Source: an uncultured Verrucomicrobiae bacterium
GTDB taxonomy: Bacteria > Chlamydiota > Chlamydiia > Chlamydiales > Rhabdochlamydiaceae
Reading direction: 5' to 3'
Assembly (NCBI GenBank): GCA_963707995.1
Contig: OY970179.1
Location: 1,424,266-1,488,265, forward strand
DNA: 64,000 nt
The translations under genes were made by a program, and so were the position numbers. Positions 20,679 to 20,824 of the stretch are shown piece by piece. The notes under the pieces were generated by a model, which was not told the origin of the DNA, did no database searches, and saw nothing but the letters and a program-made list of their open reading frames with translations. Within the stretch, counting starts at the first letter, position 1, and each line of letters begins with the position of its first letter.

Positions 20679-20824
20679 GAGTGTGTCTGTGATCTGGGTT
20701 GTCTTGATTTTTGATGGATTTTGCTTTTGGCTTTGATTCGATTCCGCAGGACATAGTTAAATTAACTAGGCCAAGGAATCGAATCAAAGCCAAAAGCAAA
20801 ACAACCCAGATCGCAGACACACTC
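20679..20824. repeat. 146-bp two-tier palindrome (CACAGAG-type family)
   Basis: The outer arms are 'gagtgtgtctgtgatctgggttg' / 'caacccagatcgcagacacactc' and the inner arms 'gcttttggctttgattcgattcc' / 'ggaatcgaatcaaagccaaaagc'. It lies immediately upstream of ORF 20847. Confidence 0.7.

What the first reader, a model, noticed from the sequence alone, without database searches (positions are those of the whole stretch)
20679..20824. A family of long, near-perfect CACAGAG-type palindromes (20679, 40660, 44621)
Three intergenic sites carry 100-146-bp palindromes whose arms share 'cacagag/ctctgtg' cores: 'tgtgtctgtgatc', 'cacagagatcacagagacacagag' and 'gggcacagaggacacagaga'. Arms are 24-48 bp with few or no mismatches, which is far longer than an intrinsic terminator needs. 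They sit at gene ends (after ftsK and ORF 40279, after the MFS at 44605) or just upstream of a gene (20847). They could be bidirectional terminators, RNA stability elements or recombination hotspots. Their shared sequence points to a spreading element.
Basis: seen in the sequence. Interest (0 to 1): 0.55.

Follow-up and report, generated by a model that had tools for sequence, protein, structure and literature searches.

The report
Widespread CACAGAG-repeat hairpin elements

Summary
The three palindromes are real: RNA-fold z-scores are -15 (20678-20825), -11 (40660-40759) and -18 (44618-44756). Only the last two share the CACAGAG core. The first has no exact CACAGAG, has the opposite arm polarity, and scores like a generic hairpin against a model of the family (12 bits, E 0.44, against 54-59 bits).

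That model found a fourth member at 22073-22154, built from the sister unit CGCAAAG. The window comes from a Rhabdochlamydiaceae-like chlamydia.

Each arm is 2-5 tandem units of a heptamer plus a 1-2-nt purine spacer. The T-free arm is always 5'. The type is not lineage-specific. One pattern scan hit the 120-locus limit both in species-representative genomes (Acidobacteria, Planctomycetes, Chloroflexi, Bacteroides, Proteobacteria, two archaeal bins) and in viral contigs. A permuted heptamer gave 19 loci, none palindromic. Strict canonical polarity gave 32 loci against 2 inside-out.

Elements sit a median 24 nt after stop codons and are rare between divergent genes. They lack a U-tract. Copies on one contig resemble each other far more than copies elsewhere. 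Close relatives lack them at orthologous sites.

Best reading: a REP/MITE-like, horizontally spread hairpin element transcribed into mRNA 3' ends. How it spreads is unknown. No Rfam family or paper was found.

The parts
40660..40759 (.). Element B, a canonical CACAGAG-type hairpin. The 5' arm is 40660-40689 with units at 40660, 40669 and 40677. The 3' arm is 40730-40759 with CTCTGTG at 40736, 40744 and 40753. The loop holds an inner hairpin.
   Evidence: The covariance model gives 53.7/51.9 bits, E about 1e-12. The fold is -60.4 kcal/mol, z -10.9. A second strain of the same species has it with one base changed; relatives with 80-83% identical FtsK lack it.
40693..40732 (+). Inner hairpin (13 pairs) in the loop of B, followed by TTGTTTTTTT. 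This is the only canonical terminator-like feature in any of the four elements.
   Evidence: Consensus scan and fold.
40279..40689 (+). Small membrane-protein gene downstream of ftsK. Its last 12 codons (LNLHRDHRDTEL) are supplied by the flank and 5' arm of B, and its stop codon lies in the loop of B.
   Evidence: Protein alignment with four orthologues. Conservation ends at ...WKKKKxLF, after which the tails differ. ORF list.
44618..44756 (.). Element C. It has two CACAGAG units per arm (44656, 44665 and 44703, 44712), a degenerate CACTAGAG unit, and an outer extension that starts and ends with the family's usual TTCACCAC...GTGGTGAA.
   Evidence: The covariance model gives 58.9 bits, E 4e-14, over 44639-44735. 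The fold is -107.2 kcal/mol, z -18. It lies 13-20 nt after the MFS gene's stop at 44605. Relatives lack that gene at this position.
22073..22154 (.). It has the same architecture with the sister unit: CGCAAAG A CGCTAAG C CGCAAAG A CGCAAAG, a loop, then CTGCG CCTTGGCG CCTTGGCG GCTTTGCG. Its boundary is TTAAC...GTTGA.
   Evidence: The covariance model gives 36.1 bits, E 1e-7. Sequence. The fold on the sense (-) strand is -39.2 kcal/mol, z -5.6. It starts 9 nt after the stop of the minus-strand ORF 22163-22504. One strain (L392) and a relative (L396) lack it.
20678..20825 (.). Palindrome A. It is real but not a member. It is a two-tier hairpin with the A-poor arm 5' (inside-out) and no regular heptamer array. 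It lies between the divergent genes hemB and a small His/Asp-rich ORF, 21 nt before the latter's ATG.
   Evidence: The covariance model gives 12.3 bits, E 0.44. Three strains of the species have it with 1-4 base differences, including three uncompensated changes in one arm in L393. Relatives lack it upstream of hemB.

Best explanation
B, C and the newly found D are copies of a small, non-coding palindromic repeat of about 60-140 bp. It resembles REP and MITE elements and is widespread and patchily distributed.

Anatomy (shown):
- Each arm is a tandem array of 2-5 units.
- Each unit is a heptamer (most often CACAGAG; sister flavours are CGCAAAG/CGCCAAG, CGCGGAG, ACAGGAT and others) plus a 1-2-nt, mostly purine, spacer.
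- The T-free arm is always 5' and the A-free arm 3', whichever strand is read.
- The base of the stem is usually TTnnC...GnnAA, set in A-rich and T-rich flanks. The loop is variable and AT-rich.

Behaviour (shown):
- The units and their polarity are shared across distant phyla and viral contigs, whereas the outer frame and loop are genome-specific.
- Copies within one contig are close relatives of each other.
- Elements come and go between close relatives, sometimes taking the last codons of the upstream gene with them.
- They accumulate a few tens of bases after stop codons.

Mechanism (inferred):
- The element multiplies within genomes and moves between them, plausibly on phages.
- It persists where it does least harm, at gene 3' ends.
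- Its arms contain no stop codon in any frame. An insertion into the end of a gene therefore only swaps the C-terminal tail, as in ORF 40279-40689.
- It is transcribed with the upstream gene and folds into a very stable hairpin of -40 to -107 kcal/mol.
- That hairpin would block 3' exonucleases, offer a double-stranded RNase target, and could pause or partly stop RNA polymerase. These are the effects REP elements have in enterobacterial operons.
- Slippage within the unit arrays, and copying of one arm onto the other, would keep the arms repetitive and matched.

The machinery that copies the element is not identified. Palindrome A is a separate, species-specific hairpin.
For: Breadth and specificity:
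- The pattern CACAGAG-N0-3-CACAGAG-N25-55-CTCTGTG reached the 120-locus limit in species-representative genomes. The hits span Acidobacteriota, Planctomycetota, Chloroflexota, Bacteroidota, Verrucomicrobiota, Proteobacteria, Myxococcota, Nitrospirae, Firmicutes, one Chlamydiota bin and two archaeal bins.
- It reached the same limit in viral contigs.
- It is also present in Bacteroides ovatus and B. finegoldii and at 15-20 places on each Gemmatirosa megaplasmid.
- There were no matches in the E. coli collection.
- In viral contigs a permuted heptamer gave 19 loci, none two-sided.
- Strict two-sided canonical polarity gave 32 loci and inside-out gave 2.

Anatomy:
- Unit spacing is 8-9 nt with purine spacers.
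- The boundary consensus is shared by three flavours.
- The stem-base pair covaries: AU 15, GC 11, CG 4, with 31 of 32 paired.

Propagation:
- Pairs within a contig are 0.83 identical on average and 21 of 56 reach 85%. Pairs between contigs average 0.645 and 0 of 400 reach 85% (P = 5e-26).

Turnover:
- B and C are absent from 22-kb syntenic regions of three relatives.
- D is absent in one strain and in a relative.
- At one orthologous viral-contig (phage) site, a CACAGAG hairpin in one contig corresponds to a GGGGAGA hairpin in the other.

Position:
- In the combined genome and viral set there were 164 tandem, 31 convergent and 18 divergent contexts.
- In the genome-only set the counts were 62, 25 and 6.
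- The median distance from stop codon to element is 24 nt.

Other:
- The tail of ORF 40279-40689 is encoded by the arm of B.
- There is no Rfam match beyond sub-threshold generic hairpin models.
Against: - No target-site duplication was seen. The flanks are inverted, not direct.
- No autonomous parent element or transposase was found. Arm pairs 1.4-2.7 kb apart enclose ordinary phage genes.
- The outermost bases are the least conserved part, which is the opposite of classical MITEs.
- G-U pairs show no clear excess on the sense strand (526 against 466). There is therefore no positive evidence that selection acts on the RNA.
- Transcription, termination and stabilisation were not measured.
- B, C and D are not close copies of one another, so recent amplification in this genome is not shown.
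- The archaeal hits are metagenome bins and could be contamination.
Confidence: 0.5

Rival explanations
1. They are site-selected transcription terminators or 3'-end stabilisers. Each is kept by selection where it lies, and they look alike only because of shared functional constraints, not because of mobility.
For: - They lie just after stop codons and are depleted in divergent intergenic regions.
- The hairpins are extremely stable.
- The symmetric A-rich and T-rich flanks recall bidirectional terminators.
- B contains an inner hairpin plus a T-run.
Against: - The T fraction is only 0.34 in the 15 nt downstream, lower than the upstream A fraction of 0.39.
- Some copies lie inside operons, between gmd and fcl.
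- One copy lies directly after a canonical terminator.
- Close relatives lack them at the same sites.
- A terminator needs no particular heptamer or arm polarity, yet the polarity ratio is 32 to 2.
- Near-identical loops recur in copies on one contig.
Confidence: 0.2
2. They arise in place. Polymerase slippage expands a short repeat in one arm of an ordinary hairpin, and template switching copies the change to the other arm. On this reading they are paired simple-sequence repeats, not transferred elements.
For: - The arms are tandem-repeat arrays with irregular 8- or 9-nt spacing and variable unit numbers.
- Many heptamer flavours exist.
- Solitary arrays exist without an inverted partner.
- The literature reports over-represented heptamer repeats attributed to slippage, and convergent GGGAATC arrays in Xanthomonas (PMC4692102; PMC4679880).
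- The element is flipped between B. ovatus and B. finegoldii, which shows that the arms interact.
Against: - Independent origin does not predict the same heptamer, the same polarity and the same TTnnC boundary in distant phyla and in viral contigs.
- A permuted heptamer is several-fold rarer and never two-sided.
- Copies at different loci of one contig share their loops.
Confidence: 0.15
3. The heptamer arrays are binding platforms on DNA for a sequence-specific protein, such as a recombinase, transposase, nucleoid protein or phage protein. The hairpin potential would then be secondary.
For: - The heptamers are conserved while spacers, frame and loop vary.
- Fixed polarity of the units towards the centre is what terminal inverted repeats with multiple binding sites look like.
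- Several flavours could correspond to several protein specificities.
Against: - No candidate protein was found next to the elements.
- The 8-9 bp spacing is out of phase with the DNA helix.
- Spacers and stem base stay complementary between the arms, which points to pairing rather than mere repetition.
Confidence: 0.1
4. Palindrome A is a decayed or rearranged inside-out member of the same class, for example the junction of two neighbouring elements.
For: - A shares the 10-mer AGATCACAGA with B.
- Its arms are compositionally skewed, one A-poor and one T-poor, and quasi-repetitive.
- Inside-out examples exist, though they are rare.
Against: - The model score of 12.3 bits (E 0.44) is no better than for unrelated hairpins.
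- A has no regular 8-9-nt array.
- A lies in a divergent 5' region, which is atypical for the class.
Confidence: 0.12

Closest known systems
REP / BIME / REPIN elements of Proteobacteria
   Same: Both are small extragenic palindromes in high copy number. Both lie mostly between co-directional or convergent genes and downstream of coding regions. Both are transcribed into mRNA 3' ends, where (from established knowledge of E. coli REPs) they stabilise the upstream message. Both are often arranged as inverted pairs (PMC3733652).
   Different: REPs have 8-20-bp stems and an unpaired GTAG or CGTC tag, and they are lineage-specific. Here the arms are 20-50 nt and made of tandem heptamer units. There is no GTAG or CGTC tag. 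The same unit occurs across phyla and in viral contigs. No RAYT gene has been linked to them.
MITEs with long terminal inverted repeats (Correia, RPE, Nezha-type)
   Same: Both are non-coding, 60-200 bp and almost wholly palindromic. Both form sub-families within a genome and show presence/absence between strains. Both can be read into coding regions, as Rickettsia RPEs are.
   Different: No target-site duplication and no parent insertion sequence were found. The outermost bases are variable while the internal repeated units are conserved. The distribution is cross-phylum.
Heptameric simple-sequence repeats: cyanobacterial STRR, GGGAATC arrays of Xanthomonas, TAACTGA repeats of Beggiatoaceae/Cyanobacteria/Bacteroidetes
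   Same: All are tandem arrays of a 7-nt motif in intergenic regions. In Xanthomonas 70-75 pairs of arrays face each other and could form stem-loops (PMC4692102). TAACTGA arrays are shared by unrelated phyla, and horizontal transfer is suspected without a known mechanism (PMC4679880).
   Different: Here the period is 8-9 nt (heptamer plus spacer), not 7. Arrays are short (2-5 units). The inverted pairing with fixed polarity is the rule. The motif is different. The host range is far wider and includes viral contigs.
Intrinsic (bidirectional) terminators
   Same: Both are a stable stem-loop after a stop codon with A-rich and T-rich flanks.
   Different: There is no U-tract adjacent to the stem. 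The stems are several times longer than a terminator needs. The sequence is conserved. Some copies lie inside operons or next to a true terminator.
Intercistronic RNase III processing hairpins of phage T7 (comparison from my own knowledge, not tested)
   Same: Both are long hairpins between phage cistrons, present in several copies per genome.
   Different: T7 sites have internal loops and no tandem-unit arms. Cleavage of the present elements was not tested.

Membership tests
CACAGAG-type tandem-unit hairpin (class defined here) | At least two heptamer units at 8-9-nt spacing on the 5' arm, mirrored on the 3' arm, with the T-free arm 5' | tested here: met
   B has 3+3 exact units and C has 2+2. 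D has four CGCAAAG-type units on the 5' arm and three plus a truncated one on the 3' arm. A has none and is inside-out.
CACAGAG-type tandem-unit hairpin (class defined here) | Significant score against a covariance model built from elements of other genomes | tested here: met
   C scores 58.9 bits, B 53.7 and D 36.1 (E 4e-14 to 1e-7). A scores 12.3 bits, E 0.44, so A does not meet the feature.
CACAGAG-type tandem-unit hairpin (class defined here) | Position just downstream of a gene, not between divergent genes | tested here: met
   B overlaps a stop codon, C lies 13-20 nt after a stop, and D lies 9 nt after a stop. A lies between divergent genes, so A does not meet the feature.
REP / REPIN | Short stem of 8-20 bp with an unpaired GTAG or CGTC tag at one end | tested here: not met
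   The arms are 24-55 nt and the boundary consensus is TT[AC][AG]C-CACAGAG with no tag. The definition is taken from PMC3733652.
REP / REPIN | A cognate RAYT transposase gene flanked by the repeats | not testable with these tools
   Only windows of 8-22 kb around the hits are available, and no complete genome could be read.
MITE | Terminal inverted repeats | tested here: met
MITE | Direct target-site duplication flanking the element | tested here: not met
   The flanks are inverted complements (A-rich on one side, T-rich on the other), not direct repeats. No clean empty site was recovered.
MITE | A related autonomous element with the same ends | tested here: inconclusive
   Arm pairs 1.4-2.7 kb apart enclose phage structural and nuclease genes, not transposases. 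Only about 2 Mb of sequence was searched.
Intrinsic terminator | G+C-rich stem followed directly by a U-tract | tested here: not met
   The mean T fraction is 0.34 in the 15 nt downstream. The scan flags none of the outer hairpins. Only the inner hairpin of B qualifies.
Heptameric SSR / STRR | Perfect head-to-tail repeats with a 7-nt period | tested here: not met
   The spacing between units is 8 nt (111 cases) or 9 nt (164 cases), never 7.
Any Rfam family | Score at or above the gathering threshold | tested here: not met
   Only the tRNA-His passes in the window. In E-value mode the only hits were microRNA-precursor models well below threshold.

The most novel reading that the evidence does not exclude
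The heptamer-array hairpins (CACAGAG and its sister flavours) are the footprint of an unrecognised, sequence-specific machinery shared by many bacteria, some archaea and their viruses. Candidates are a recombinase or transposase that reads 8-9-nt units, or a templated polymerase that writes them. That would make this a new kind of mobile or self-renewing element rather than a passive repeat.
Probability: 0.15. Interest if true: 0.85.

Novelty: new variant of a known kind. Interest (0 to 1): 0.6.

Why it matters
Small palindromic repeats such as REPs and MITEs are normally lineage-specific. A hairpin whose arms keep the same 7-nt unit, the same polarity and the same boundary from Chlamydiae to Acidobacteria, Bacteroides and viral contigs implies one of two things. 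Either non-coding DNA is moving between phyla on a large scale, or a shared factor reads that unit.

In practice these elements change gene 3' ends, as in the swapped C-terminal tail here. They probably shape mRNA 3' ends within operons. They mark sites of rapid turnover between close relatives. They are absent from Rfam, so genome annotation misses them.

Because Bacteroides ovatus and B. finegoldii carry them, the question can be tested in a genetically tractable organism.

Tried and rejected
- Rfam, in gathering and E-value modes over all four sites, gave only generic microRNA-hairpin models below threshold.
- Eight full-text searches turned up no description of this element. They used CACAGAG, CACAGAGGACACAGAG, CTCTGTGGTGAA, CUCUGUG, CGCAAAGACGC and keyword sets. 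The Bacteroides transcriptome paper and the REP survey do not mention it.
- GTAG- or CGTC-tagged REPs were considered and rejected on stem length and the missing tag.
- integron attC sites, DnaA boxes (the TTnnCCACA boundary resembles TTATCCACA), RSS heptamers, retron msd and TIGR arrays were considered from memory and dropped, because their architecture does not fit tandem units on both arms. None was tested.
- The search for an autonomous parent found only phage genes.
- The search for clean empty sites among related loci gave no usable pair. It did turn up one replacement of a hairpin by another flavour.
- The test for an excess of G-U pairs on the sense strand was not significant.
- A metagenome scan with a 20-mer from A's inner arm found nothing, not even the species' own contigs, so it says nothing about further copies of A.
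- Looking up the window's own FtsK gave a contig without DNA.

Full report
**Observation**

Reading the three sites shows that each is a long, near-perfect palindrome.
- A is 20678-20825 and is two-tiered: outer arms of 34 nt at 91% and inner arms of 27 nt at 100%, with about 17 extra bases in one arm.
- B is 40660-40759, with 30-nt arms.
- C is 44618-44756, with 55-nt arms of which about 47 bp pair without interruption.

As RNA they fold at -93, -60 and -107 kcal/mol. The z-scores are -15, -11 and -18 against dinucleotide shuffles.

The shared core is real only for B and C. Ten of the window's 13 exact CACAGAG lie in those two elements, against 5.1 expected in the whole window. A has none. 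It shares one 10-mer with B, but on the opposite arm.

**Host and context**

The closest relatives of the window's FtsK and HemB are named Rhabdochlamydiaceae or Chlamydiota in their source records.
- B overlaps the stop codon of a small conserved membrane-protein gene downstream of ftsK.
- C follows a Tet-like MFS transporter gene.
- A lies between the divergent genes hemB and a 76-codon His/Asp-rich ORF.

The window is full of other long intergenic hairpins, so long palindromes are not special here in themselves.

**What B and C are**

I scanned one genome per species with the pattern CACAGAG-N0-3-CACAGAG-N25-55-CTCTGTG. About 30 chance hits were expected by my own arithmetic. The scan stopped at its 120-locus limit. 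The hits span Acidobacteriota, Planctomycetota, Chloroflexota, Bacteroidota, Verrucomicrobiota, Gamma- and Betaproteobacteria, Myxococcota (the complete Sorangium genome), Nitrospirae, Firmicutes, one Chlamydiota bin and two archaeal bins. Most match on both strands, which means they are palindromes. The same scan of viral contigs also hit the limit.

BLAST then found the elements in Bacteroides ovatus and B. finegoldii, at 15-20 places on each Gemmatirosa megaplasmid, and as half-elements in Nostoc and Anabaena. It found no match in the E. coli collection.

The consensus runs as follows:
- an A-rich flank;
- TT[A/C][A/G]C;
- CACAGAG plus one or two purines, repeated 2-5 times;
- an AT-rich loop;
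- the mirror image of the above.

The stem-base position, which my pattern did not constrain, covaries: AU 15, GC 11, CG 4, with 31 of 32 paired.

**Specificity controls in viral contigs**

| Pattern | Loci | Note |
|---|---|---|
| Loose pattern: permuted heptamer | 19 | none two-sided |
| Loose pattern: inside-out polarity | 25 | partly from adjacent elements |
| Loose pattern: CGCAAAG | 55 | sister flavour |
| Loose pattern: ACAGGAT | 45 | sister flavour |
| Strict two-sided, canonical polarity | 32 | |
| Strict two-sided, inside-out polarity | 2 | |

The recapture estimate rests on 22 of the 32 strict hits being among the first 120 loci.

The sister flavours share the same boundary features as CACAGAG. 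Mining the fetched loci without fixing the motif showed further flavours: CGCGGAG, CGCAGAG, CACGAAG, AAACGGA, AGCAACC and AATTTGGT. The class is therefore 'hairpins whose arms are tandem 8-9-nt units'. CACAGAG was the most frequent of the three flavours counted.

**Membership inside the window**

A covariance model built from 32 three-unit elements of other genomes gave these scores:

| Site | Bits | E-value |
|---|---|---|
| C | 58.9 | 4e-14 |
| B | 53.7 | about 1e-12 |
| 22073-22154 (new) | 36.1 | 1e-7 |
| A | 12.3 | 0.44 |

A's score is at the level of ordinary hairpins in the window. The new element, D, is built from CGCAAAG, CGCTAAG and CGCCAAG units with a TTAAC...GTTGA boundary. It starts 9 nt after the stop of a minus-strand ORF.

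**Behaviour**

- *Position.* In the genome loci alone I counted 62 tandem, 25 convergent and 6 divergent contexts. With the viral loci added the counts were 164, 31 and 18. The median distance from stop codon to element is 24 nt, and from element to the next start 32 nt. Gene calls here are my own crude ORF calls.
- *No U-tract.* The T fraction downstream is 0.34, against an A fraction of 0.39 upstream.
- *No strand asymmetry.* G-U pairs number 526 on the sense strand and 466 on the antisense strand, which is not significant.
- *Propagation.* Elements on one contig are 0.83 identical, loops included, against 0.645 between contigs (P = 5e-26). The outer frame is genome-specific while the units are universal.
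- *Turnover.* B and C are present in a second strain of the same species. They are absent from the syntenic 22 kb of three relatives with 80-83% identical FtsK. One of those relatives carries an unrelated 230-nt palindrome at B's site. D is missing in one strain and in a relative. At one orthologous site in two viral contigs (phage) with about 95% identical flanks, one contig has a CACAGAG hairpin and the other a GGGGAGA hairpin, and the last codons of the upstream gene differ as well. Between B. ovatus and B. finegoldii the gmd-fcl element is conserved in place but flipped. Phocaeicola, Parabacteroides and Prevotella have no element there.
- *Coding effect.* The T-free and A-free arms carry no stop codon in any frame. 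The small gene at 40279-40689 reads through B's arm, giving the tail LNLHRDHRDTEL, and stops in the loop. Its orthologues end differently right after ...WKKKKxLF.

**Interpretation**

The data fit a REP/MITE-like selfish hairpin. It multiplies within genomes, crosses phyla (it occurs on viral contigs), settles at gene 3' ends and is co-transcribed. From what is known of REP elements and of long intercistronic hairpins, it would then stabilise or process mRNA 3' ends. Only the distribution and the anatomy are shown. Transcription and its effects are inferred.

The classical hallmarks of transposition are missing. I found no target-site duplication and no parent element. The mechanism of spread is therefore open.

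The rivals are site-selected terminators, in-place growth by slippage and arm-to-arm copying, and protein-binding arrays.
- The terminator reading fails on the missing U-tract, the copies inside operons, and a copy lying next to a true terminator.
- Pure in-place growth does not predict one heptamer, one polarity and one boundary across phyla. Slippage probably does shape the arrays, as proposed for heptamer repeats (PMC4692102; PMC4679880).

**Palindrome A**

A is conserved in three other strains with 1-4 differences. These include three uncompensated changes in one inner arm in L393, which argues against strong selection on pairing. The hemB upstream regions of relatives are only 103-144 nt long, too short to hold it.

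A lies downstream of a promoter-like site at 20626-20654 and 21 nt upstream of the ATG of the His/Asp-rich ORF. If that promoter is used, A would form a 148-nt hairpin in the 5' leader. I treat it as a separate, species-specific palindrome of unknown origin. A decayed inside-out relative cannot be excluded.

**Novelty**

I found no Rfam family and no paper describing the element (21, 36, 37, 45, 46, 70, 71, 96). The nearest precedents are three:
- convergent GGGAATC heptamer arrays in Xanthomonas;
- TAACTGA arrays shared by Beggiatoaceae, Cyanobacteria and Bacteroidetes;
- REP families.

I therefore rate it a new variant of a known kind. My literature access is incomplete, so an existing description may have been missed.

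Noticed in passing
window 20416-20586, 51467-51614, 56593-56760: A second family of 150-180-nt hairpins shares the core AGGTTGTGTGAATTTT. The copy at 20416-20586 lies next to A. It is absent from three other strains of the same species whose flanks are 98% identical, so it is an insertion polymorphism and the family is mobile.
   Followed up: partly
window 30266-30453, 36848-37023, 48578-48759: A third family of 180-190-nt hairpins has the ends TATACCCAAGT...AAAAATCGG and folds at about -100 kcal/mol. 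Copies differ by paired changes in both arms. One copy starts 10 nt after tRNA-His (36764-36838).
   Followed up: no
window 27479-27571: A hairpin whose arms are tandem GGTGCC/CGTGCC units fills the whole spacer up to the ATG of the ComEC-like gene at 27572. It is another repetitive-arm hairpin of a different flavour (about 10 bits against the CACAGAG model).
   Followed up: no
window 14628-14797: A 170-nt hairpin folds at -118.9 kcal/mol, and its arms repeat CGATTTTCG. Its inner part scores 24.5 bits (E 2e-4) against the CACAGAG model, which is probably a generic stem effect.
   Followed up: no
window 20847-21077 and 15883-15970: A small ORF has a signal-like N-terminus and a His/Asp-rich tail (HHDDD repeats), and other pipelines call it a gene in related contigs. 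A second CATGATCATGAC-type repeat at 15883-15970 could encode a similar peptide.
   Followed up: no
L290 12730-12960: A relative with 80% identical FtsK carries an unrelated 230-nt palindrome at exactly the spot where the window has B. The spacer after this small gene is therefore a repeated landing site for hairpin elements.
   Followed up: partly
L171 6350-6776 and L128 5750-6100: Viral contigs carry tandem arrays with periods of 149 and 120 nt. Each array repeats a composite element. In L171 an inner CACAGAG hairpin is nested inside outer CGCAAAG/CGCCAAG arms.
   Followed up: partly
L241 3001-3074 and L243 600-690: The gmd-fcl element of Bacteroides ovatus and B. finegoldii occupies the same site but is inverted as a whole between the two species (arms and loop swapped), while the flanks are unchanged.
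   Followed up: partly
L226 4792-4879 versus L126 8277-8403: At one orthologous site in two viral contigs (phage), one contig has a CACAGAG-unit hairpin and the other a GGGGAGA-unit hairpin. The last codons of the upstream gene also differ, although the flanks are about 95% identical.
   Followed up: partly
window 43367-44605: The Tet-like MFS transporter gene upstream of C is absent from the syntenic region of all three relatives examined, which carry other genes there. The segment between the MBL-fold gene and the pyruvate dehydrogenase E1 gene is a variable island.
   Followed up: partly
L242 3001-3184: In B. finegoldii one element begins right after the T-run of a canonical terminator, and a second, unrelated hairpin is nested in its loop.
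   Followed up: no
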